DNA of 64,000 nt from Anolis carolinensis (Eukaryota). The DNA lies in assembly GCF_035594765.1 (NCBI RefSeq), contig NC_085841.1, positions 318,007,402 through 318,071,401 on the forward strand. Direction: 5' to 3'. Both the position numbers and the translations under genes were made by a program. Under the pieces are notes generated by a model. That model did not search any database. It was given only the letters and a program-made list of their open reading frames with translations, and was not told the DNA's origin. Positions 9,713-62,222 of this stretch are shown piece by piece (within the stretch, counting starts at the first letter, position 1; each line of letters begins with the position of its first letter).

Positions 9713-12700
9713 TTACCATCAGGCCACAGTACAGACAGTAGCAGACTCCAGCAACACTGGAGCAGACTGAAGAAAGTGTGGAGCTTTTGCAAGAATTTGA
9801 AGAACCAACACCTGAAGAACCAACACCTGAAGAACCAACACCATTACCAGGAATGTTGACAGCAAGACAACAAGAGCTCAAGGATAAAATCATGGCCCAT
9901 GCTGCAGCAAATGCAGTAAGAAAGAGACTCCCAACTTTAAAAACAGTGCTCAAGAGACGCCTGGCATTTCTCATGAAAGATATGAATACATTACTTTCTA
10001 CTGTCCATATAACATCCATTGAACAAACAATCTAGTTTGCCTACAGTACAGCAGTGATAGTAACAGAAGAGCTTGGACTCCTTCAACCAATGCAGCCCCA
10101 AAGAAAATCGACTGGAAAACCAAAATGGAAGATCAGGTTGGAGCTGAAAATCAAAAATCTATGATCAGATGCAAGTAACCTAGAAAATATGAAGTAGAAG
10201 AAACGGAAGAATGACAAAAGCAAGCAATACTTGATCAGAAAGTACTGGAACACCAGAAAAATTGAAGAAGCTTTGGAAATAGTGAAAGAACAAATTGCAG
10301 CAACTGCCAGAAAAATTGAAATATGAAGCCAGAATCATCCAGTACAGACAAAACCAACTGTTTCAATCAGACCAAAGACAGTTCTACCAGAGTCTGAACC
10401 AAACAACAGACACAGTAACCACAAAGCCAGAGAAAACTGCAACTACTAAGTTCTGGAAAGAACTTTGGGAAAATAATAAAAACTACAACAAAAACGCTGG
10501 GTGCATAAAGGAGTTTGAAGGAAAATTCTCACAGAACAAAATGGAACAGATGGAAATAACAACTGAAATGATCAGCAAACGAGTGCAAAAAGTCAAGAAC
10601 TGGACATTGTCTGGTAGTGATCAACTGCATGGATTTTGGCTCAAATATCTGATTAGTTTACATGGAAAAATGGCCCAACAATTCAATGAGATGCTGCAAA
10701 AAGGAAGTATCAGTGAATGGTTAACAACTAGAAGAACATACCTAATGCAAAAGAATCCAGCAAAAGGAGCAGCACCAGGAAACTATAGGCCAATAACGTG
10801 TCTACCCACTATGTTTAAACTACTGACTGGCATCATAGCTGACAGAATTCAAGACTATCTTGAAGAAAAGAGCATCTTGCTAGATGAACAGAAAGGCAAC
10901 AAACGGAAAAGCAGGGGCACAAAAGACCAGTTATTAATTGACAAAATGATTCTGGAGAACTGTAAAATCCAAAAAGCTAATCTTCACATGACGTGGATTG
11001 ACTACAAAAAGGCCCTTGACTCACTCCCACACAGCTGGATCATCAAGTGCCTGGACGCCATCGGGATTTGTAAAAATGTTGGCACTTTTTATTGAAAATA
11101 TGATGGAGCGCTGGAAAACTGAACTATTTGTTGGAAACGAAAGCTACGGACTTGTCAACATCAGAAGAGGAATTTTCCAGGGATACTCACTATCCCCACT
11201 GCTTTTCATTATTGCCACGATCTCTCTGTGAACAATCTTACAAAAAACAGACCTCGGCTATCAAGCCTCCAAGAAATCTCACAAAATTTCACATCTGATG
11301 TACATGGATGACCTGAAGCTGTATGGGAAAACTGAAACTGAAATTGAGTCTCTGACCAACACTGTCCGAATCTTTAGCGCTGATATCAACATGGAGTTTG
11401 GTCTGGAAAAATGTTCGACAGTGGCATTGAAGAAGGGAAAAATCATTGAAAGTGAGGACATAAATATGCCTAATGACCAAATGATAAAGTGTCACTAGCC
11501 AGAGGCCTATAAATATCTGAGTATACTACAGCTGGACAACATCAAGCATGAACATGTAAAACTATGGTCAGCAAAGAATACACTAAAGGGGTCAGAAAAA
11601 TTCTCAAAAGCAAGCTCAATGGAGGCAACACCATCAAGGCCATAAACACCTGGGCCATACTTGTCATAAGATATACTGCTGGCATCATAAGATATAAGAT
11701 ATACTGCTGGCAACCCAAATTGAACTGGAAATTTGGACAGAAAAACAAGAAAATTCATGACCATTCATAATTCATTTCATCCTCACAGTGATGTTGACTG
11801 GCTATATCTGCCTGGAAGATCTGGTGGCAGAGGACTCTTACAAGTAAAACAAACAGCTAAAGAAGAAGAACATGCTCTGGCAGAGTATGTAAAGGAAAGT
11901 GAAGAACCTGCTTTGATTGAAGTCAAAAATCAGAAAATCCTCAAAGCACAGCAGACAAAGAATCAGTACAAAAAAAACGCACTACAAACTAGAGCTAACA
12001 GCTGGCACGACAAAACATTGCATGTGCAGTTCTTTGACAAAATTGAAGGAAAAGCTGATAAGAAGCAGACCTGGCTATGGCTCACGAATGGGACACTGAA
12101 GAAGGAGACAGAAGGTCTGATTCTTGCAGCCCAGGAGCAAGCCATCAGAACAAATGCAATTAAGGCCAAGATCGAAAAATCATCTAATGACCCAAAATTC
12201 AGACTATGCAAGGAAGCTGACAAAACTTTGATCATATCCTCAGCTGCTGTAAGAAGATCGCACAGACCGACTACAAACAAAGGCACAATTATGTGGCCCA
12301 AATGATCCATTGGAATCTATGTCACAAGTACCACCTGCCAGCAGTAAAGAACTGGTGGGAACACAAACCTGCAAAGGTAGTGGAAAATGAGCATGCAAAA
12401 ATACTGTGGGACTTTCGAATCCAGACTGACAAGGTTTTGGAACAAAACACACCAGACCTCACGGTTGTGGAAAATAAAAAATTTGGATTATTGATGTCAC
12501 CGTACCAGGTGATAGTTGGATTGATGAAAAAAAAAAAAAAACCAGGAAAAACTCAGCCATTATCAGGACCTCAAGATCGAACTGCAAAGGCTCTGGCATA
12601 AACCAGTGCAGGTGGTCCCTGTGGTGATCGGCACATTGGGTGCCATGCCAAAAGAGCCGGCATTTGGAAACAATAAACATTGACAAAATTATGATCTGTC

Positions 12701-23671: not shown

Positions 23672-24911
23672 TAAGATAAATCATAATAATCACAGCCTAA
23701 GTTTCCCTTTTTAAAATATATTTCCCACATGAAGGAAGTAATAATAAGCTACGTAACAGGACTGTTGTCAGAGCCTTTTCAAGATGCTTTGCTGCCTCAG
23801 CAGAAGGACAGGATGGCACCCCACTTCAATCTACAAACAAAAGTAGAGTGAAGTAATAGTTTAATTTTATCTCAACATTTCTATCAAGTCTTTTAAGTCC
23901 TCCCACATACTCAAAGTACAGAAGTTCTTCTTGATGTTGTTATTTATAATTAGCATTAGCATCATCCTTATCTTCATCTTTTTCTCCAATAATGGGACTC
24001 AAAACAATGTATAAAAATTTGAGCCAATAAGATAAAAGAATATTAAAAGACTTAAAAATAAAAGGATATTAAAAGAACATGCAAAAAGTTGTTAAACTTT
24101 ATTCATTAAATTATTCACAAAATTAAAATCTTTTAAACACATCTATGAAAACTAGATAAAAGTCATCAAGGCAGCACACCATTAAAAGCTTTTGCAGTCT
24201 GGTCCCAAAAGCCTGTTGGGATGAATCAGTTTATACTTGAAAACATGAAAGGGGACATCCTAGCCTTTCTGGCCACCCTGAAGATCTTAGGCCTTTCATT
24301 TTATTTACTGAATTTATATCCTGCCGTTCCTCCAAGATAGGATTCAAGGTAGAACATATAAAAACAGTGCCTTGAATAACCAGGACCTGAACTGTATAAT
24401 GCTTTATTGATCATAACCAGCACTTTGTAACACAAGCACCTTTTAAAGAGATGGTCTTGGTGAACTGATCAGAAGGAATAGCTAGAAGAAGCTATCTTGG
24501 TGCATCAACATACTTGCCTCACCTCTACTTAGTGGTGAGGCCACTTCTGAATGATGGAATGATGTAGACATTTATTAAGCACTTTCAACATCGAAAACTT
24601 GCAATTCAAAGTTGAAGTGCTGCAGTCATTGAGAATTACATGGTCTCACAAAAAAGTTTCTTCTTCCTCTACTCCCCACACTTGAGCAAATTTGAAGCTG
24701 CAAGCAGGAGGGGAAATCTATTCCAACAGTAACTGTCATTTGTTCTTGTTGTATAGCTTCAAATCAACTCTTTACTTATTTCAACATTATCCTAGGACTT
24801 TCTTGACAAGATTTATTCCCCTTCAACTAAGGACATTATCACATCAACCTTAGTCTTGTGGCAAGTGCATTGTTTAAGCAAAATTAAATACTCTATTTAC
24901 TTGAATCTAGT

Positions 24912-25253
24912 GTGACATCAAATCTACCTATTGTGGCTCAGCCTGCTCTTCAGCCTGAGATGGAGTTCAAATCAGATTTCAGGCCCATCCAAGATTTTGA
25001 CCGAAGCCCTGTAAATTTGCAGGTGTCTGAAGTAGTTGTTACAGAGGATCCGGTAATTGAGGAACAATCCAATGGTCAGTCAAGGCTGATTCAGCCAGAT
25101 GGGGCTGTCAGCTTGGAGGAGTGTGTTGATTTTGACCGAAGAGGGATGTTTACGAGAGAGAGGAGCAGAAGGGAGGGTTTGAGAAGAAGTCAGTGTTTGG
25201 CTCTCAGACGCACTAATGAGGAACTTTTACATGAGAAGACTAGCACTCCCTAG
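24912..25253 (+). CDS. Putative LTR U3-encoded peptide (113 codons; acidic body, C-terminal FDRR..F...LRRSQ[C/R]LA)
   Basis: Open from the LTR edge. Motif spacing is identical to ORFs 38547-38822 and 60104-60397. The Cys codon TGT is one CpG transition from Arg CGT. Confidence 0.45.
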   Translation: MTSNLPIVAQPALQPEMEFKSDFRPIQDFDRSPVNLQVSEVVVTEDPVIEEQSNGQSRLIQPDGAVSLEECVDFDRRGMFTRERSRREGLRRSQCLALRRTNEELLHEKTSTP

Positions 25254-25537
25254 TTCTCATTGCACTGTAGCCTTGAAATCTCTTTAAAGATGCCTTGCTC
25301 CGTTTTTCCTGTGCAGTGTCAACTTTGCTATCCATCAGTTTTATACCTTGCTGCAATTGTACTATGCTGGCACTTTGAATTCCCACAGTTAATCTTCTAC
25401 ACAACCTCCCTTCCTAGCCATATTTGCCCTACCTACCATATGTGGGGAATAACCAGTGATATTGGATACAGTGAAAGAGTTATCCATCAATAAAAGGATT
25501 CAATCATTATTCAAGCAATATAACTATGGGACAGACA
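24913..25537 (+). mobile_element. Solo LTR (Gypsy-type), older; carries a U3 ORF
   Basis: TG...CA ends (TGACATC...GGGACAGACA), imperfect TSD TAGTG/CAGTG, AATAAA at about 25489. The left end could instead be 24911. Confidence 0.65.
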
Positions 25538-27009
25538 CAGTGTTGTGTGATAAGCCCCGATCAAGGACCCTTTTATCCAGGCCTTGTGTGATAAAGCCTA
25601 AGATGGTATGACTTACTCAAGGTTACTCAGTCATTGAGAAATTTAAATATTAGCTTCCGAAGCCCAAGTCCAATGTTCAAACCTCTATATCATGTTGGTT
25701 CCTCATGACCATTTGACTGGATAGTTGTATCTTTAGCCTTGGGTATTCTCTGTACTTACACATGACAAATGAGTATGTGTTTCTCTGTGGCCTTTTCAAT
25801 TTCCACTGCCTTCTGAACTTTCAGCACTTCTCTCATTCTAGTTTTTATACCTTAGATGCACAGGTAAGATGTTCCTTTCAGATTATGCATGAAATAACAA
25901 ACGTTACAATAGATCAAGTAATTTGGTCAGGAAACCTTCCAACTCTCTGAAAGTGTGAAAACTTTTGGTGATCCTATTTCCTTTTATAGCTCTCTAAAAT
26001 GTCATTCAGATGCTGTTCACTGTTTCACCAGGCATTTATCCTTTCATTCTTTCTGTTAACTGAGAACCAGATAGCTTTTAAACTCAAGAAATCATAAGCT
26101 TAGCCTCTGGTTAAATGTTGAATTTTGAAAGATGTTGAAAAGGCAACTCCATGGAAGAGTTTTACTAATATTAATAATGCTATTAAACAAACTTTGATGT
26201 GCTTCACCCCTGTCTATATTCTCTGTTTTGAAAACTTCTCTTAGTTCCCATTACTCAGCATGGAACCACTTTACTCACGCAAGCATCACAGTAAAATTAG
26301 TTGCTTCAACTGTAAAATGATATTGCAGGAAAAACAAAGGTCAGTCACAGCTTTGAAGTTTGTTGTTCAGTGTGTTGAAAGTTTTTAAGTGCATGTAGTA
26401 TTTTCAGGTTTTTGGAAAACATCTGTGGACAGATTTTCTAACGTGGTCTTTATCACTAAGCCAAATATTTAATGAGTATATTTATCTGATGATATTTTTA
26501 AAGAAAAGCATTTTAAAGCTTTTTGGACAGTTGACAGATATTTTCCTCTCTGATATAACCACATTTCACATATTATAAATGCATTTGCAGATAGTTGGGC
26601 GTGGACAGCATGAGATGAACCTCTTTTGGGTTTCAAGAATTAAGTTAGCTTCTCTTGGAATAAAATGTGGACCAACCAAGTTAAGGATGAAAACCATATG
26701 CGATTTCAGGTGTGGCTGAAAGCAAGAACTACTGATGAAGTTTTATGTAAAGAGATAAAAATCTGTATATGGGCTGTCAGAAACAGTTTGGCTGAACAAA
26801 GTCACTGTTCCTAAAACACTGCCGATATTCGTAAATGAGAATTGAATGAGAAACACCTGGGAAGGACCTTAATATGAGCATGCTGGTGTTCTTTGCAAGG
26901 CACAAGAGGGACCACATTAAAAGTATGTAAATTGGGTAACTCCAAGTAGATCATGAAATGTCAGAACATTTTGAAGACAATGAGTGCTTTTCTATCTAAA
27001 GAGTGAGGA

Positions 27010-38545: not shown

Positions 38546-39424
38546 TGTGATGCCCCATGGGCCTTGGAGTCCTGACCCCAGTGCCATCATGGATCATGAT
38601 GATGAAAACATGGGATTTTTGCCGTCTCAACAAGAGACCGTGCCATTCCAGATGCCTGTTGTGGACAATTCTTGCCAAGAACTCATTAAAACAGACCTTG
38701 AACAAGTTCTTCCCAGCGCTTCTCCCCCCTTCGTGAGACGGGAGTTTTTTGAGGCGAGCTGTTTCCAGAGAGCGCAAACAAGGAGAAGCGTGAGATTAGC
38801 AGCAAGACAGGGTGCTAATTAGCTAGTTTCCCCTGGGAGCTTTCAGGGAGGAACGCATCTGGATGAAGATGTGTTTCGCTTCTTTTTCCCTTGGGAAAAG
38901 AAGCTCTGGACACCTGTTTGCAGGAAGATTCGAAGTTCCTTAAAAGCTTTTCGCACGGGCAAATCTGAGCGGAGTCAACGTGTCAGTTGAAGGATTAACT
39001 TCGGTTCTAGTTAAGTGTGGACTGCGTTTTGAGTCCGCTATCTCTAGTCTCTCCGTGCCTTGCCTTGCCGTGTACTTGACCGGTCACCGTGTTCCCAGCC
39101 TTGCATCTTGTGCCAAGTACCCAGTCTTGTCTTCAGTTCCTGCCTTGGACTTACTTTGAACTCTAGAAAAACTTTGGACGCTTTCCCCACTCTAACTGCT
39201 TGGAAGTAGAGTGTGTTTCGGTTTTGGGATTATAACTTTGAACTCTAATATTATATACTGGACAATATATTTCTGGACTATATTTGACCTTCCCTGAAAG
39301 GTCTACTGCTGGACTACATTCTCTACTTGTTTTTATCCTATTATAATATTTCCTTAATAAAGATATTAGATTGTTATTGGCCTCCGTGTGTTGGTTCTTA
39401 GTGCTCCGCTGCCAGGGCGTGACA
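38546..39424 (+). mobile_element. Solo LTR (Gypsy-type, 879 bp), related to 60103-61078
   Basis: TGTGA...TGACA ends. Perfect 5-bp TSD CCCTG at 38541-38545 and 39425-39429. AATAAA at about 39356. 3' third clearly similar to 60860-61078. Confidence 0.93.
38547..38822 (+). CDS. Putative LTR U3-encoded peptide (91 aa; ends RRSVRLAARQGAN*)
   Basis: Intact frame from LTR base 2. Aligns at protein level with 60104-60397 at both ends. Confidence 0.55.
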   Translation: MMPHGPWSPDPSAIMDHDDENMGFLPSQQETVPFQMPVVDNSCQELIKTDLEQVLPSASPPFVRREFFEASCFQRAQTRRSVRLAARQGAN

Positions 39425-55926: not shown

Positions 55927-56252
55927 TGTCAGGACCCATGTTTCCCGGGCCTTCACGTTGGCGCCGGGAATCAGGCCCCTGACATTCCCGCGCATTCCTG
56001 AACTGATAAGCAGGCCGGGGCCGGCCTTGAGACATCAACGGACAAAGGGGGTTTTTGGCGGGCACTGTGCGCGGGTTTTTTCACTGAGCGGGAATTGCTT
56101 GTTTGAATGTGGGAGGAGGCTATATAAAGGGACCCGAGGGCATCACCCAGCACTCTTGGCTTCTTATGCGTCAGTTATCCTTCAGTAAACATTCATCTTG
56201 TTTACGTGCCGGTCTCGCGTCTTCATTCCCGAGCGGCTGGAGTGAGCTGACA
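55927..56252 (+). repeat. 5' LTR
   Basis: TGTCA...TGACA. TATATAAA at 56121, AGTAAA at about 56184. Three substitutions relative to the 3' LTR. Confidence 0.98.
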
Positions 56253-56255
56253 GGC

Positions 56256-56266
56256 AAGCCAAGAGT
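56256..56266 (+). promoter_or_regulatory. Self-priming primer-binding site
   Basis: AAGCCAAGAGT is the exact reverse complement of ACTCTTGGCTT (56152-56162), which lies 31 nt after the TATA start. There is no TGG tRNA-type PBS. Confidence 0.8.
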
Positions 56267-56295
56267 ACTGACGCCATCCTGTGTTACAGTGAGGT

Positions 56296-56790
56296 ATGGA
56301 AATGGACGAAGAGGCAGAAACTTTGATCGGAGCAGAGGGGGGCATGTCCCTCTCCGACCAGTTCGAGGGGTTTGCAGCCGTGGCGGCTTCCACCGCATAT
56401 GCGCACCCTAACGGAGTCACTCGTAGACGAGAGAGGGCGCGAAGGGACGACGCGGAGCCCAAGTAGCGATTTGAGCTTCGTGTCCCCACAAAGACTAGAG
56501 TTCCTGGAGGAGAGAATGGGTGCCCTCGAAAGCACGCTTGACGTCATGTCAAAAGCGATGGAGCGCCTCGCTCCTCTCCTCGCGGCAAGCTGGGAGGGAA
56601 TGGCCCGGGCCGAACCCAGGCAGACGACGGGCGAGGAATGGACCCAGGGGGCCCCGAAAGACATGGGGGCCCGCGCCAAATCCCAAACGGGCCTCGCGAG
56701 GACGGAGGGGGGCGACAATGGCAGTAGCGAGGACAAAAGAAGACCCCAGAGAGAGCCGTTGGATTTTCTCCCCCCCCGGTGCCCCCGGCA
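56296..56790 (+). pseudogene. gag: gag N-terminal region with two apparent frameshifts
   Basis: ATG 56296 (MEMDEEAETL...) stops at 56464. The coiled-coil-like RLEFLEERMGALESTLDVMSKAMERL lies in the next frame (56372-56920). The frame returns to that of 56779 near the C-run at about 56770-56777. Confidence 0.6.
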
Positions 56791-59700
56791 CACGCCGGGC
56801 GCGGCGCTAGCCATCGAGGGGAAGCGACGGGACATCATCACCGAGCCCCAGGGGACATGCAACGCACCGGGCCGTGGGGACCGCCTGCCCCATTCCCACA
56901 GCAGAGGAGGGAGGAGTTGAGAATCGAGTACGAGGGGGAACCCTCTGAGCTAGACTTTTTCATGACCACCGTCAGAGGCTTCATGGAGGACAACGGACAG
57001 ACTTTTGCGTCCGAAGCCAGTCGGGTTAGGGCTATAGGAGCCGCCTTGAGGAAGGCAGCTGCGGGTTGGTATGTGCAACTACATGCCAGGCGCGACCCCT
57101 GCCTGAACTCTGTACGGCAGTTCCTGGCAGCCCTGGAAGGCCGTTTCCGCGATCCGCTGGAGCAACTCCGGGCGAAGGAGGGGCTGAGAACCATCCTCCA
57201 GGGGCAGAGGTCAGTCTCCCAGTACGTGGAGGAATTCCAGAGCCTAGCAGAAAAGGTTAGAGACTGGAGCGACGTGACGAAGCTGGAGTGCTTTAAGGAG
57301 GGGCTGAGACCCGAGCTCCTCTCCTGGGCGGCACACAGAGACGATCCAGGGACGCTACAAGGCTGGATTCAGCTGGCAGGGCGCGTCGAGACAACGCTAG
57401 CTCAAGTGAGGAGACAACGAGGAGGCGGAAGACCACAACGACAGCAACCCCAGCCGAGCGGGGAGATCAGGAAGCCAGGGGGACCCCCCTCCGGGAAACG
57501 ACCTGAGGGAAAAGGAAATACCAACAAGGCATGGAGCGGATGTTTCGTGTGCGGGCGTGTAGGGCACCGGGCTGCCGAATGCTGGCAGCGGAAAGGGGAA
57601 GGGGGCAACCAGCCCAAACCCAAGACTGCGGCAGGAAAGCGGGCAGAGGAGGAAACTCCGGGAGGAAGCCGACCCGATGAGCTAGTAAGTCATGACAAAA
57701 GAATGCTAGTAATGCCAATTAGAATAGAGGGGAAGGACAAACACGCCACATGTAAAGCTTTTATCGACTGCGGGTGCTCGAGGAACATCGTCACACCCGA
57801 ACTAGCAGGGGAATTGGGGTGCGAGACGGTGGCGCTCGGGACACCGCTCGCATTCTCGCAGCTCGATGGATCCCTGGCCTCAGGAGGGGTGGCCAAACAC
57901 TCCGTAGAGAAGGTCAAATGCCAGATAGGGACCTGGGGAGGAGAGGTGTCGTTTGTCATATCCCCAATGGCGACCTATAACGTAATATTAGGCATGCCAT
58001 GGTTGGAACAGGCCAATCCACTTATTGATTGGGAGGCTAGGAGCCTACTCTTCAAAAGGATAGAGAAAGAGATAAGCAACAAGGGGGAAGAAGAACTTGG
58101 CAGGTTGGAAGAACTGGCTAGGCAATTACCCGAAGAATATCGTGACTTTGTTGATGTTTTTGACGAAAAGGGAGCCGATAAATTTCCACCCAAAAGGAGA
58201 GTAGAAGTAGGGATCGAACTAGTGCCAGGGGCAGAACTCCCCAAAGCTAAAATCTACCCGATGTCTGCACAGGAAAAGGAGGAACTGAGGAAGTATATTG
58301 ACAAAAACTTGGCACGGGGTTTCATAGAACCATCGAATTCCCCCCTGGGGGCCCCAGTGTTGTTCAGGCGTAAAAAGGACAATTCGCTTAGGCTATGTAT
58401 TGACTATAGAAATCTGAACGCAATCAGCACAGATAACAAATACCCATTACCCCTAATGAAGGATTTGTTGTCCCAATTGGCAGAGGGGAAAATATTCACG
58501 AAATTAGACTTAATTGAAGCGTACCACAAATTAAGGATCAAACCAGAAGACAGGTGGAAGACTGCTTTCTCCTGTAATTATGGATTATTCAACTACCGAG
58601 TGTGCCCTTTTGGTTTAAAAAATGCAGGAAGCGTATTTATGCAGTTAATTAACGAGGTACTCCACCCGTTGTTACACAGGGGAGTCTATGTCTACCTAGA
58701 TGACATATTAATAAGAGGGGAGACCAAACAGCAGCATGTCCAATTGGTGAGGGAAGTACTCCAAAAGCTTAGGGAAGCAAAACTCTATGCCAGGATAGCC
58801 AAATGCGAATTCAACAAGGACCAAATAGACTTCCTGGGATACAGAATTTCATCCCAAGGGATAGCCATGGACCCCGCTAAGGTGGAGGATGTGAAAGGGT
58901 GGGAGGCCCCAAAAACCCGTAAACAACTACAGTCCTTCCTTGGGTTTGCGAATTTCTACCGGACGTTTGTGAAAGACTTTGCACAACTAACACTGCCACT
59001 GACAGACCTACTAAAGACAAAGGGGAGGGGGGAAACGACCAGAGTAAAGGCCCCGGGGGCTAAGCTGGCGTGGACAAGGGAATGCCAAGAGGCCTTTGAA
59101 GCCCTAAAGGGGAAATTTACAGAGGAACCGGTGTTGCAACACCCTGATATGTCCAAGCAATTTGTTGTACATTGCGATGCCTCCGATTGTGCGTATGGGG
59201 CGGTCCTGTTGCAAAGGGACCGGGAGGGTAACCTTAAACCATGCGGGTACCTGTCGCGAAAATTCAATGATGTAGAGAAGCGCTGGCCGATTTGGGAAAG
59301 GGAAGCGCTGGCCATCTTGAGAGCACTGGAATGCTGGAGACACCTCCTGGAAGGAAGCGGGACCCCTTTTGAAGTGTGGTCTGACCATAAAAATTTACAA
59401 TACCTGAGATCCCCTCGCAAACTGTCCCCCAAGCAAATGAGATGGGCCCAGTATTTCAGCAGATTCGACTTCCAACTGAAATTTTTCCAGGGGAAACATA
59501 ATGTACTGCCTGACGCGCTCTCACGCATGCCTCAGCATGAGGTGGGGCCCCAAGACTCCGAGGGAGGGATATTCTCAGACAAACAGTGGGGCCTAGCGGT
59601 CACAACCAGAGCGCAAGCCGAGAGAGAGAATAAACTCACGGCCATCAAGACGGAGGGGGAAACATGGGAGAAGGAATTAAAGCAAGCATATCAGGGGGAC

Positions 59701-60102
59701 ACCTGGTTGATTTCCAATAAGGGGAAGGGGGAACTGCATGGAGGTTTGATGTTTGTCAACAAAAAGCTGTACATTCCTGAAATATTGCGGCCAGAAATGC
59801 TGAAACGGTATCACGACAGTAAAGGGGCGGGCCACCTGGGGCTTACAAAAACCATAAAGCTATTAGCAAGGCAATGTTGGTGGCCGGGGATGAGGGGAGA
59901 TGTGAAGTCACACATCGCCAAATGTGACCTATGTGCAGAAAACAAAACAACCCCCGGGAAACCACAAGGGCTGTTACAAACCGTAGTAGAACCCACGAGG
60001 CCGTGGGAATGCATAGCGATGGATTTTGTGGGCGAACTACCCCCTAGCCGGGGGTGTCGATACATTTGGACTGTTTTGGACCTGTTTTCCAAACAGGCCC
60101 AC
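56779..60102 (+). CDS. pol: Gag-Pol polyprotein, part 1 (capsid, CCHC knuckle, protease, RT, RNase H, integrase N-terminus)
   Basis: CFVCGRVGHRAAEC, AFIDCGC, LRLCIDYRNLN, PFGL, YLDD, HCDASD, WSDHKNL, integrase H-X6-H...CDLC and AMDFV. Open for 1108 codons up to the inserted LTR. Confidence 0.95.
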
Positions 60103-61078
60103 TGTGATGACCCATGGGCCTTGTAGTCCTGCTCATGACATTGTGATGCCTGATGAAGAAGGAAACTTGGGTTTTTTACCTTCCCAGTCAGAACTGGATT
60201 CTTCCCAGACAGATTCTTCCCAGCCAGATCTGGGAACCTTGCACCTGCAAGAGGGTTATGTCCCAGAAGTATGTCAAACAAACACTGAGGCTACATCTCC
60301 TGTGTTTTCTCGCCATGAGTTTTGTAAACAACAGAGAGGTTTGGAAGCGGCCTCGCGCAGGAGTGCTAGAATAATTGCTAAGAATTTAGCCAATTAAGCC
60401 TGCTTTCCATGAGAATCTTTAAGGAGTCAAACATCTGGTCTCAGAGATTAGCTTTCGTTTCTGGTTCCCAGAGAACTGCTCTCGGCGGGAAAGTTAGACT
60501 CTATATAGGTGTTTTACCCGCGGAGTAACTTTGCGGAGTCAATTCGTCAGCCTCCGGAGCGAGTTGCGTCTGGACAGCGCGCTCCGATCCAAGCCTCGTT
60601 CCTGTTCAAGCCTTGTTCTTGTTTTCAAGCCTTCGCTCCTGTTTCCCAGCCTTGTTTACCTACGGACCTTGCCTCGCCTTTCAGGACTAAGCCTTGCCTT
60701 GTTTCACGGATTTTACCAAGTAATTCCACGGATCTTGTTCTTGTTCCTTGTTACCTTGTGCCACGATTCAAGCCTTGTTTTCAAGTATCAAGTTAATTCC
60801 TAGCCTTGCTCAAGTTCATGGACTAAAGGACCTTGTCATCTCCCCTCACTTTGCCTGGCAAAGTGAGTGTTTCGGTTATTGGATTACAACTTTGGACCTT
60901 AATATTTCATATTGAACATTGTTTCTTTGGACTAATTTTGACCTTTCCTGAAAGGTCTGCTTCTGGACTAACTTTTACATTTGCTTTTATTAACTTTATA
61001 TATTTCCTTAATAAAGATATTAGATAGAATCTGGCCTCTGCGTATGGTTATTGGTGCTCTGTAGCCTGGGTCGTGACA
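60103..61078 (+). mobile_element. Solo LTR (976 bp) nested in the Gypsy integrase
   Basis: TGTGA...TGACA ends. Perfect TSD CCCAC at 60098-60102 and 61079-61083. TATATA at 60502, AATAAA at about 61010, internal AAGCCTTG-like repeats. Confidence 0.96.
60104..60397 (+). CDS. Putative LTR U3-encoded peptide (97 aa; ends RRSARIIAKNLAN*)
   Basis: Intact frame from LTR base 2. Homologous to 38547-38822, with a net in-frame 6-codon length difference. Confidence 0.55.
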   Translation: MMTHGPCSPAHDIVMPDEEGNLGFLPSQSELDSSQTDSSQPDLGTLHLQEGYVPEVCQTNTEATSPVFSRHEFCKQQRGLEAASRRSARIIAKNLAN

Positions 61079-61083
61079 CCCAC

Positions 61084-61842
61084 TTCGTGCCGCTACAGAA
61101 ACTCCCCTCGGCTGAGAAACTCGCCGAGCTGTATATTAAACACATTTATCGCCTGCACGGATGCCCCGAGAAGGTAATTAGCGATAGGGGGGTCCAGTTC
61201 ACGGCGAGGTTTTGGGGGACGTTCTTACAGATGCTGGGGGCAGAGAGGAGCCTAAGCTCAGCGTTCCACCCCATGACCAACGGGGGGGTCGAACGCACAC
61301 AGCAAACGCTGGCGCAATACCTGAGAATATATTCTAACCGTAGGCAGAACGACTGGGCTGACCTATTACCGTTCGCTGAGGCAGCCTTTAACGGGGCGAC
61401 GCACTCCGCCACAGGGAGATCCCCCTTTGAGATTGTATACGGCCAAGAAGTAGCGCCGTTCCCAAAGTTGCCCGAGTGGAAAGAAGAGGGGGAGTTCGAA
61501 GGCAGGGAATGGCGAACAAGGATCAGAGCTGGGTGGCAGGATGTGGCGGCGGCACTGAGAGAAACGCAGCGAAAGTACAAACTATTTGCTGACCGAAAGC
61601 GCAGGGAGGGGGAGACAATTGAGGAGGAAGACTTGGTCTGGCTGAGTACAAAAAACTTAAGTCTGGGGCTCCCCTCCAAAAAGTTGAGCCCGCGTTACAT
61701 AGGCCCCTTCAGAGTGTCAAGGAGAATCAACGAGGTCACCTACCAACTGAAACTACCAAGGGATCTGGGGAAGGTACACCCAGTATTCCATTGTAGCTTG
61801 CTTAAGAAATACAGGGGTACGTTGGACAACGGAGAGTCGTAG
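61084..61842 (+). CDS. pol: Pol part 2: integrase core and GPY/F domain, no chromodomain
   Basis: ISDRGVQF, HPMTNGGVER and RYIGPF. In frame with part 1 once the 981-bp insertion (LTR plus one TSD copy) is removed, joining as KQAH|FVPL. Confidence 0.95.
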   Translation, partial: FVPLQKLPSAEKLAELYIKHIYRLHGCPEKVISDRGVQFTARFWGTFLQMLGAERSLSSAFHPMTNGGVERTQQTLAQYLRIYSNRRQNDWADLLPFAEAAFNGATHSATGRSPFEIVYGQEVAPFPKLPEWKEEGEFEGREWRTRIRAGWQDVAAALRETQRKYKLFADRKRREGETIEEEDLVWLSTKNLSLGLPSKKLSPRYIGPFRVSRRINEVTYQLKLPRDLGKVHPVFHCSLLKKYRGTLDNGES

Positions 61843-61863
61843 ATGTATTGGTTGTTTCTTTTC

Positions 61864-61891
61864 AGGAGGAAGAGGAAGAAGAGGAGGAGGA
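61864..61891 (+). promoter_or_regulatory. Polypurine tract
   Basis: AGGAGGAAGAGGAAGAAGAGGAGGAGGA just before the 3' LTR. Confidence 0.9.
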
Positions 61892-61896
61892 CACCA

Positions 61897-62222
61897 TGTC
61901 AGGACCCATGTTTCCCGGGCCTTCACGTTGGCGCCGGGAATCAGGCCCCTGACATTCCCGCGCATTCCTGAACTGATAAGCAGGCCGGGGCCGGCCTTGA
62001 GACATCAACGGACAAAGGGGGTTTTTGGCGGGCACTGTGCGCGGGTTTTTTCACTGAGCGGGAATTGCTTGTTTGAATGTGGGAGGAGGGTATATAAAGG
62101 GACCCGAGGGCATCACCCAGCACTCTTGGCTTCTTATGCATCAGTTATCCTTCAGTAAACGTTCATCTTGTTTACGTGCCGGTCTCGCGTCTTCATTCCC
62201 GAGCGGCTGGAGTGAGCTGACA
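61897..62222 (+). repeat. 3' LTR
   Basis: 323/326 identical to the 5' LTR. Confidence 0.98.

What the first reader, a model, noticed from the sequence alone, without database searches (positions are those of the whole stretch)
24912..25253. A third, dissimilar LTR carries the same motif with identical spacing
By eye this older LTR has little nucleotide similarity to the other two. It still opens with a 113-codon acidic ORF containing FDRRGMFTRERSRREGL-RRSQCLALR. This aligns ungapped to FVRREFFEASCFQRAQT-RRSVRLAAR (38547 ORF) and FSRHEFCKQQRGLEAAS-RRSARIIAK (60104 ORF), with F at position 1, R at 3 and RRS at 18-20 in all three. The discordant Cys is TGT, one CpG deamination from Arg. Three independent insertions within 36 kb suggest the U3 peptide is an old, widespread feature of several LTR families (inference).
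Basis: partly seen in the sequence, partly recalled or inferred. Interest (0 to 1): 0.75.

Follow-up and report, generated by a model that had tools for sequence, protein, structure and literature searches.

The report
Lizard retrotransposon integrase tail mimics HMGN
The reading frame at the start of this repeat is likely the leftover tail of a lizard jumping gene's integrase enzyme, as database proteins show for a neighbouring repeat, and in that family the tail ends in a conserved arginine motif matching the one HMGN proteins use to grip nucleosomes, so it is predicted to help the element hold on to chromatin when it inserts.

Summary
The motif is real; the "stand-alone U3 peptide in three independent families" is not. 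The 60104 ORF is the last 97 residues (98% identical) of an Anolis Ty3/Gypsy chromovirus Pol, read through the polypurine tract into the 3' LTR after a chromodomain. The 38547 LTR is its end-to-end DNA homologue, so two of the three are one lineage. The 24.9-kb repeat (A) is multicopy and probably starts at 24929, not 24911. It keeps the same reading phase, and its motif block scores far above shuffles against a family profile built without it (0/3000). Most other copies have the CpG (Arg) form of the Cys codon. A's parent Pol was not found, and its 3' end and target-site duplication are unresolved. In the family, RT, IN core and chromodomain stay 93-100% identical while the tail falls to 50%. 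Yet F-x-R-x14-R-x-S-x-R is kept in 32/32 tails, with synonymous codon changes. The usual form, RRSARIAA, matches the acidic-patch-binding motifs of yeast Dot5 (7/8) and HMGN (6/8). Best reading: an LTR-encoded nucleosome tether beside the chromodomain; binding is untested. The motif was found only in anole proteins (0/30 non-anole relatives).

The parts
24929..25537 (+). Repeat A: old multicopy LTR-like element (5' boundary inferred; 3' end approximate; no target-site duplication found)
   Evidence: Contig depth about 20-50 times the flanks over about 24931-25335, most pieces under 95% alike, diverse flanks before 24931; TATA-like TTTAAA at 25283 and AATAAA at 25489; TSD searches at chance level
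24930..25253 (+). LTR-encoded frame of A (107 codons, phase +2 of the LTR start): likely integrase C-terminal tail; acidic disordered N-part, basic helix at the end
   Evidence: AlphaFold2 of the 106-aa part: disordered 1-68, helix 69-103, pLDDT about 80
25131..25208 (+). Motif block of A (F-x-R-x14-RRS..); HMGN-like octamer position 25182-25205; the anchor-position codon 25194-25196 is decayed to Cys in this copy
   Evidence: Profile score 35.8, 0/3000 shuffles; copy variation
24894..24928 (.).
   Evidence: Other copies leave the window sequence behind 24926
38546..39424 (+). Solo LTR B (TG..CA, 5-bp TSD CCCTG); tail frame 38547-38822; motif RRSVRLAA at 38781-38804
60103..61078 (+). Solo LTR C (TG..CA, 5-bp TSD CCCAC) inserted into the integrase gene of element D; tail frame 60104-60397 = Pol residues 1116-1212 of P0004; motif RRSARIIA at 60356-60379
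55927..62222 (+). Element D: separate Ty3/Gypsy element hosting LTR C; not part of the motif-bearing family
   Evidence: LTR pair 99% identical; Pfam gag-PR-RT-RH-IN, no chromodomain hit; long separate branch in RT-RH tree

Best explanation
The frame at 24930-25253 is likely the LTR-encoded C-terminal tail of the integrase of an old anole Ty3/Gypsy chromovirus, as is shown for the neighbouring LTR C, and the tail's terminal R-R-S-x-R motif is predicted to tether the integrase to the nucleosome H2A-H2B acidic patch in the manner of HMGN proteins. Shown: in the C family the pol frame runs RT-RNaseH-IN-SH3-chromodomain, through the polypurine tract (..GRGLEEGDS) and on for 85-97 codons into U3 of the 3' LTR. 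Because both LTRs are copies, every solo LTR starts with this frame in phase +2. Shown: the tail diverges fast with frame-keeping indels while F-x-R-x14-R-x-S-x-R stays fixed. Predicted: a long acidic disordered linker followed by a basic helix of about 27 residues. Inferred: A belongs to a distant sister family with the same design. Inferred: the chromodomain reads a methyl-lysine mark while the flexible tail grips the acidic patch, holding the integration complex on chromatin and perhaps biasing target choice. Solo LTRs such as A, B and C would not make the protein; they are decaying imprints of it.
For: P0003 matches Pol P0004 residues 1116-1212 at 98%, directly after a Chromo domain at 1041-1089. 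Of 45 Anolis proteins examined, 34 have a chromodomain hit and 31 of these continue in frame into the tail. Against P0004, 12 full-length relatives have RT 94-100%, IN core 95-100% and chromodomain 94-100% identity but tail 50-92%. Tail lengths are 85-97 aa. F68, R70, R85, S87, R89 and A92 are invariant in 32/32 tails, and R86 in 31/32. B versus C codons give dN 0.57 and dS 1.57; F68, R70, R85, R86, S87 and A92 differ only synonymously. The octamer is RRSARIAA in 23/32 tails: 7/8 with Dot5 RRSARIAT and 6/8 with HMGN RRSARLSA. In Dot5 the arginines at motif positions 1, 2 and 5 are required for nucleosome binding (PMC13347269, passages). Position 5 is the cryo-EM arginine anchor in HMGN2 and Dsup (PMC12487698). 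The chance of RRSxR[LI] in a 97-aa tail at Pol composition is about 3e-4. For A: same phase, open frame in 44/20000 shuffles, motif score, same predicted disorder-then-helix layout, and motif-block identity A-B of 11/26, like B-C at 10/26. Precedent for an LTR-encoded targeting tail: plant CRM group A elements (PMC3059260; PMC3605345).
Against: No binding or targeting data exist here. A's parent Pol was not found, so its link to an integrase is by analogy. A has no established TSD, and this copy has Cys at the anchor position. Among A's other genomic copies, the 33 listed variants in the frame show no selection (24 non-synonymous, 8 synonymous, 1 stop; codon positions 9/13/11), and a CpG-type stop is in 38-67% of depth. 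That is expected of dead solo LTRs but gives no independent support. AlphaFold2 places the motif inside a continuous helix, whereas the modelled Dsup segment is proline-flanked and straddles an H2A helix, so the binding mode may differ. The tail's N-terminal part is also conserved (13 of 24 invariant positions among six divergent tails lie in residues 1-28). RRSxR is short. The 32 tails are related, not independent. Pfam HMG14_17 was not hit.
Confidence: 0.55

Rival explanations
1. It is the integrase tail, but the basic helix is a nuclear localisation signal, a non-specific DNA clamp or a docking site for a non-histone host factor (as other integrase C-termini bind Sir4, Pol III factors or BET proteins), and the HMGN likeness is incidental.
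For: Predicted continuous helix with fixed F-to-RRS spacing. Conserved F-x-R and N-terminal residues have no counterpart in the HMGN octamer. Ty5-Sir4 and Ty1/Ty3-Pol III precedents (PMC12159745 passage).
Against: The invariant residues are those needed in Dot5/HMGN/Dsup (R1, S3, R5; R2 in 31/32), with a hydrophobic residue at position 6 in all 32. No lysine appears at these positions in any of the 32 octamers, which would be unusual for a generic basic NLS (recalled).
Confidence: 0.25
2. A is unrelated to B/C, or only convergent: an LTR of another Gypsy clade, or another repeat, whose Arg-rich frame happens to fit.
For: No DNA similarity. Pairwise BLASTP not significant. HMM E 0.41. No parent found. 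No TSD. A's start differs from the TGTGATG of B/C.
Against: Ungapped profile without A scores it about 7 SD above shuffles and nearly twice the next segment of the window. Same phase, similar length, same charge layout and predicted fold. CpG (Arg) form in most other copies.
Confidence: 0.12
3. One reading: a separately expressed U3 peptide (from a spliced or read-through RNA) with its own function.
For: An ATG at codon 2 is invariant in 32/32 B/C tails. Some predicted host gene models begin with or include this frame (P0007, P0008, P0084-P0086).
Against: That ATG is part of the terminal TGTGATG integrase-recognition end, and the identical residues among the first nine codons are DNA-identical between B and C. 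U3 lies upstream of the TATA-like box, so the LTR's own promoter would not transcribe it (established LTR biology). The frame is continuous with Pol in 31/34 cases. A lacks an ATG there. The gene models are predictions.
Confidence: 0.08

Closest known systems
Plant CRM group A centromeric chromoviruses (CR motif)
   Same: [quoted passage not shown]
   Different: The CR motif replaces the chromodomain, whereas here a chromodomain is kept upstream of the PPT and the LTR-encoded motif is additional. No centromeric location is shown here. Sequence similarity to the CR motif was not tested.
Vertebrate sushi/Tf2-like chromoviruses (fish and amphibian Gypsy Pols P0010-P0039)
   Same: Same domain order with SH3_Tf2-1 and Chromo; RT-RH 47-57% identical; 11/30 show a G-rich PPT-like stretch plus Val followed by 3-45 more residues, i.e. 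apparent read-through into the LTR.
   Different: Their tails are short and often end in SP[DEC][YF] (8/30). 17/30 have RGRP just after the chromodomain, 0/30 have RRSxR, and 0/45 anole proteins have RGRP.
HMGN nucleosome-binding motif (HMGN1/2/5), yeast Dot5 and tardigrade Dsup HMGN-like motifs
   Same: Octamer RRSARIAA versus RRSARIAT, RRSARLSA and RRSSRLTS; the essential Arg positions 1, 2 and 5 and Ser 3 are conserved; the motif sits in a disordered region.
   Different: It sits at the C-terminus of a retroelement integrase, inside a predicted helix with a fixed upstream F-x-R. There is no HMGN protein homology (no Pfam hit). Binding is untested.
Viral acidic-patch tethers (foamy virus Gag CBS, KSHV LANA, hCMV IE1)
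   Same: Short arginine-anchor peptides that hold a viral complex on chromatin; in foamy virus tied to integration (PMC9040877 passages).
   Different: Those are in Gag or nuclear antigens, not an integrase tail, and their motifs are different.

Membership tests
Ty3/Gypsy chromovirus (B/C family) | Pol order PR-RT-RH-IN with a C-terminal chromodomain | tested here: met
   Pfam on P0004/P0005; tail of LTR C is 98% identical to P0004 1116-1212
Ty3/Gypsy chromovirus (B/C family) | TG..CA LTRs with a 5-bp TSD | tested here: met
   B: CCCTG; C: CCCAC
Ty3/Gypsy chromovirus (B/C family) | RT groups with chromoviruses | tested here: inconclusive
   Six anole rows form a 100/100 clade among chromodomain Pols, but the tree has no non-chromovirus reference and its deep nodes are open
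Ty3/Gypsy chromovirus (repeat A) | Interspersed multicopy repeat with an LTR-type 5' boundary, TATA and polyA signals | tested here: met
Ty3/Gypsy chromovirus (repeat A) | Defined 3' end with a TSD | tested here: inconclusive
   Only one-mismatch candidates, at about the chance number
Ty3/Gypsy chromovirus (repeat A) | Internal region with chromodomain Pol in frame with the LTR frame | not testable with these tools
   No host genome held; no parent in protein or contig searches
CRM group A (CR motif) | Pol extends into the 3' LTR | tested here: met
   31/34 chromodomain-bearing anole Pols
CRM group A (CR motif) | CR motif in place of a chromodomain | tested here: not met
   A Pfam Chromo domain is present upstream of the PPT; not a member, works-like analogy only
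HMGN-like nucleosome-binding motif | R-R-S-x-R core with Arg at positions 1, 2 and 5 | tested here: met
   31/32 B/C tails have all three, one has RSS; this copy of A has Cys at position 5, most other copies have the Arg-type codon
HMGN-like nucleosome-binding motif | Acidic-patch-dependent nucleosome binding | not testable with these tools
   No histone sequences in session; AlphaFold 3 is reported to fail on HMGN2-nucleosome (PMC12487698)
HMGN protein family | Pfam HMG14_17 homology | tested here: not met
   No Pfam family at E<=1 for the three tails

The most novel reading that the evidence does not exclude
Anole chromoviruses have evolved an HMGN-mimicking acidic-patch anchor, encoded in their LTR, that works with the chromodomain as a two-point nucleosome reader. 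Because it lies in the fast-turning-over LTR, the tether can change independently of the enzyme. Fish relatives have an RGRP (AT-hook-like, recalled) motif instead, suggesting vertebrate chromoviruses repeatedly borrow HMG-protein chromatin grips. I found no report of an HMGN-like motif in a retroelement in the listings.
Probability: 0.45. Interest if true: 0.75.

Novelty: new variant of a known kind. Interest (0 to 1): 0.58.

Why it matters
How vertebrate LTR retrotransposons choose insertion sites is little studied. This gives a concrete, cheap-to-test candidate tether: a natural peptide of about 30 residues whose core matches an experimentally validated acidic-patch motif at up to 7 of 8 positions. 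If it binds, it adds a retroelement integrase to the short list of HMGN-motif proteins (HMGN, Dsup and Dot5 in the papers read) and gives a vertebrate parallel to the LTR-encoded CR motif of plant centromeric elements. It also explains a recurring annotation trap: ORFs at the start of reptile solo LTRs, and gene models that fuse them to host genes, are integrase tails rather than new accessory genes.

Tried and rejected
No host genome is held, so copy-by-copy analysis of A was impossible. Parent of A was not found in any search. The word-indexed search of longer proteins with the three-way alignment gave 5 hits, all B/C family; with A alone, 0 of 155 candidates scored. HMMER on 1.84 billion representatives gave 4 hits: 3 Anolis B/C-family gene models and 1 unrelated repeat protein, which I rejected. 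Viral contigs and metagenome contigs gave none confirmed. These are weak negatives for an old family with no intact annotated copy. ESM Atlas gave no usable hit for the tail; the first attempt was not run. PDB sequence search found only a designed helical repeat at E 0.053, rejected. Pfam found no family for the tails and no AT_hook hit in five fish Pols, so the AT-hook reading of RGRP is recalled, not shown. No run holding A is on record as RNA; two guessed-RNA runs were laid but say nothing on expression. I first placed A's start at 24911 and then 24932; both were dropped. All TSD candidates were at chance level. No complex prediction was sent (no histone sequences in session; the method is reported to fail for this motif). 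Fold search was not run. Earlier-findings look-ups returned nothing. No supplementary files were read; the motif alignments in the supplements of PMC13347269 and PMC12487698 could list further HMGN-like proteins.

Full report
Setting. The window is repeat-rich vertebrate DNA. Near-identical proteins in the database are labelled Anolis carolinensis. No whole genome is held. I call the three repeats A (the finding), B (38546-39424) and C (60103-61078).

Observation. The 113-codon frame and the ungapped F-x-R-x14-RRS alignment are as described. B and C are clean solo LTRs with TG..CA ends and 5-bp target-site duplications. They are homologous along their whole length (local score 305 against a shuffle mean of 31) and their peptides are 35% identical (E 3e-14), so they are one lineage. 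A shows no DNA similarity to either and no significant pairwise protein match. Laying contigs of four public runs on 24400-26200 shows A is a multicopy repeat. Summed depth is about 20-50 times the flanks over about 24931-25335 (not a copy number), and most pieces are under 95% alike. Several contigs begin at 24931 with diverse flanks whose last two letters are the LTR-type dinucleotide, and 24894-24926 follows a different repeat. The LTR-encoded frame is 107 codons, in phase +2 like B and C. A has a TATA-like box at 25283 and AATAAA at 25489, but no 3' end or TSD above chance. The same copies decay neutrally. Of 33 listed variants in the frame (40 rows shown, 35 more withheld by the tool), 24 are non-synonymous, 8 synonymous and 1 a CpG-type stop carried by 38-67% of depth.

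What the frame is. Searching longer proteins with the three-way alignment returned five Anolis proteins. The top two are complete Gypsy Pol proteins (PR, RT, RNase H, IN, SH3_Tf2-1, Chromo). The C ORF is their last 97 residues: 98% identical to P0004 1116-1212, directly after the PPT-encoded ..GRGLEEGDS. I examined 45 Anolis proteins (3 representatives and 42 listed members of clusters of 366, 94 and 17). Of these, 34 have a chromodomain hit, 31 of those continue in frame into the tail, and 30 tails are full length. The 'U3 ORF' is thus the integrase C-terminus overlapping the 3' LTR, copied into every LTR. Read-through of pol into the LTR is known in plant chromoviruses (PMC3059260, passages; PMC3605345, passages). 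It is also apparent in 11 of 30 non-anole hits, mostly fish. That part is ordinary.

Does A belong? Profiles built from the B/C family without A rank A first among the window's other six-frame segments. The HMM gives 7.6 bits, E 0.41, with 25/5000 shuffles reaching it. The ungapped 26-residue matrix from six divergent tails gives 35.8 against 3.6+/-4.4, 0/3000 and 0/5000 shuffles, next segment 19.3 of 1,524 (block chosen after the motif was noticed). In that block A-B identity (11/26) is like B-C (10/26). An open frame of 106 codons in this phase arises in 44/20000 shuffles. AlphaFold2 gives A the same layout as the family tail: disordered acidic part, then one helix (A 69-103; P0079 disordered 297-376, helix 381-407). 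A's parent was not found. I put homology at about 85%, and the integrase link for A is inferred.

Selection on the motif. Against P0004, 12 full-length relatives keep RT, IN core and chromodomain at 94-100% while the tail drops to 50-92%, with in-frame length changes (85-97 aa). Even so F68, R70, R85, S87, R89 and A92 are invariant in 32/32 tails and the F-to-RRS spacing never changes. Between B and C, dN is 0.57 and dS 1.57 over 85 aligned codons. F68, R70, R85, R86, S87 and A92 differ only synonymously, whereas the identical residues among the first nine codons are DNA-identical, as expected of the LTR end. The tails are related, so 32 is not 32 independent trials; six tails under 80% identity give the same result.

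Likely function. The octamer is RRSARIAA in 23/32 tails (others RRSLRIAA 4, RRSARITA 2, three singletons). [quoted passage not shown] In cryo-EM structures of HMGN2 and Dsup the fifth-position arginine is the anchor (PMC12487698, parts 1-2 of 5). That arginine is invariant here and is the position decayed in this copy of A. Acidic-patch tethering is used by foamy virus Gag, LANA and IE1 (PMC9040877, passages). I therefore commit to this mechanism: chromodomain plus a flexible LTR-encoded tail whose end grips H2A-H2B, holding the integrase on chromatin (0.55 overall). Against it, nothing is measured, the motif is short, and it is predicted helical, while the Dsup segment is proline-flanked. The upstream F-x-R and the conserved N-terminal residues are unexplained. 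An NLS, DNA-clamp or host-factor helix is the main rival (0.25).

Spread and novelty. All genuine hits of the tail are Anolis. None of 30 non-anole hits has RRSxR in its last 220 residues, and 17 have RGRP after the chromodomain instead. No other reptile Pol was among the named hits, so the age of the motif is open. An RT-RH tree groups six anole rows at 100/100 among chromodomain Pols with unresolved deep nodes, and element D lies on a separate long branch. Ten literature searches showed no paper on an HMGN-like motif in a retroelement or on this anole tail. I saw listings only, except the seven papers read as passages or parts (also PMC3601003, and PMC12159745). The library lacks most subscription papers and repeat databases, and no supplements were read.

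Verdict. This is a new variant of a known kind: a chromovirus integrase with an LTR-encoded putative targeting tail, here ending in an HMGN-like motif. Interest 0.58; 0.75 if nucleosome binding is confirmed.

Noticed in passing
window 55927-62222: Gypsy element D has 99% identical 326-bp LTRs and a 6-bp flanking duplication (TCCTTG), longer than the 5 bp of B and C. Its integrase ends after the SH3 domain with no chromodomain hit, and solo LTR C sits inside its integrase gene.
   Followed up: partly
window about 61850-61900: A polypyrimidine run ending in CAG (splice-acceptor-like) lies just before D's polypurine tract. D's LTR has its own 86-codon phase +2 frame without the RRS motif, out of frame with its integrase.
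   Followed up: no
proteins P0010-P0039: 17 of 30 non-anole hits have RGRP directly after the chromodomain (AT-hook-like, recalled; no Pfam AT_hook hit in 5 scanned) and 8 of 30 end in SP[DEC][YF]; the anole family has neither.
   Followed up: partly
proteins P0004 vs P0047-P0067: Pol bodies 93-100% identical carry tails only 50-76% identical with in-frame indels, pointing to LTR swapping or very fast tail evolution within one family.
   Followed up: partly
proteins P0007, P0008, P0084, P0085, P0086: Predicted Anolis gene models splice or fuse this LTR frame to other genes (PDZ domain protein 9, a C19orf12-like gene, a LINE RT); probably prediction artefacts or exonised LTRs.
   Followed up: no
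window 24894-24926, 24766-24826 and 25620-25741: Short fragments of other multicopy repeats flank A (raised depth and shared loose ends); not identified.
   Followed up: no
window 10541-12601 and 748-2247: Fragmented ORFs that look like non-LTR retrotransposon reverse-transcriptase remnants (by eye; no family scan run).
   Followed up: no
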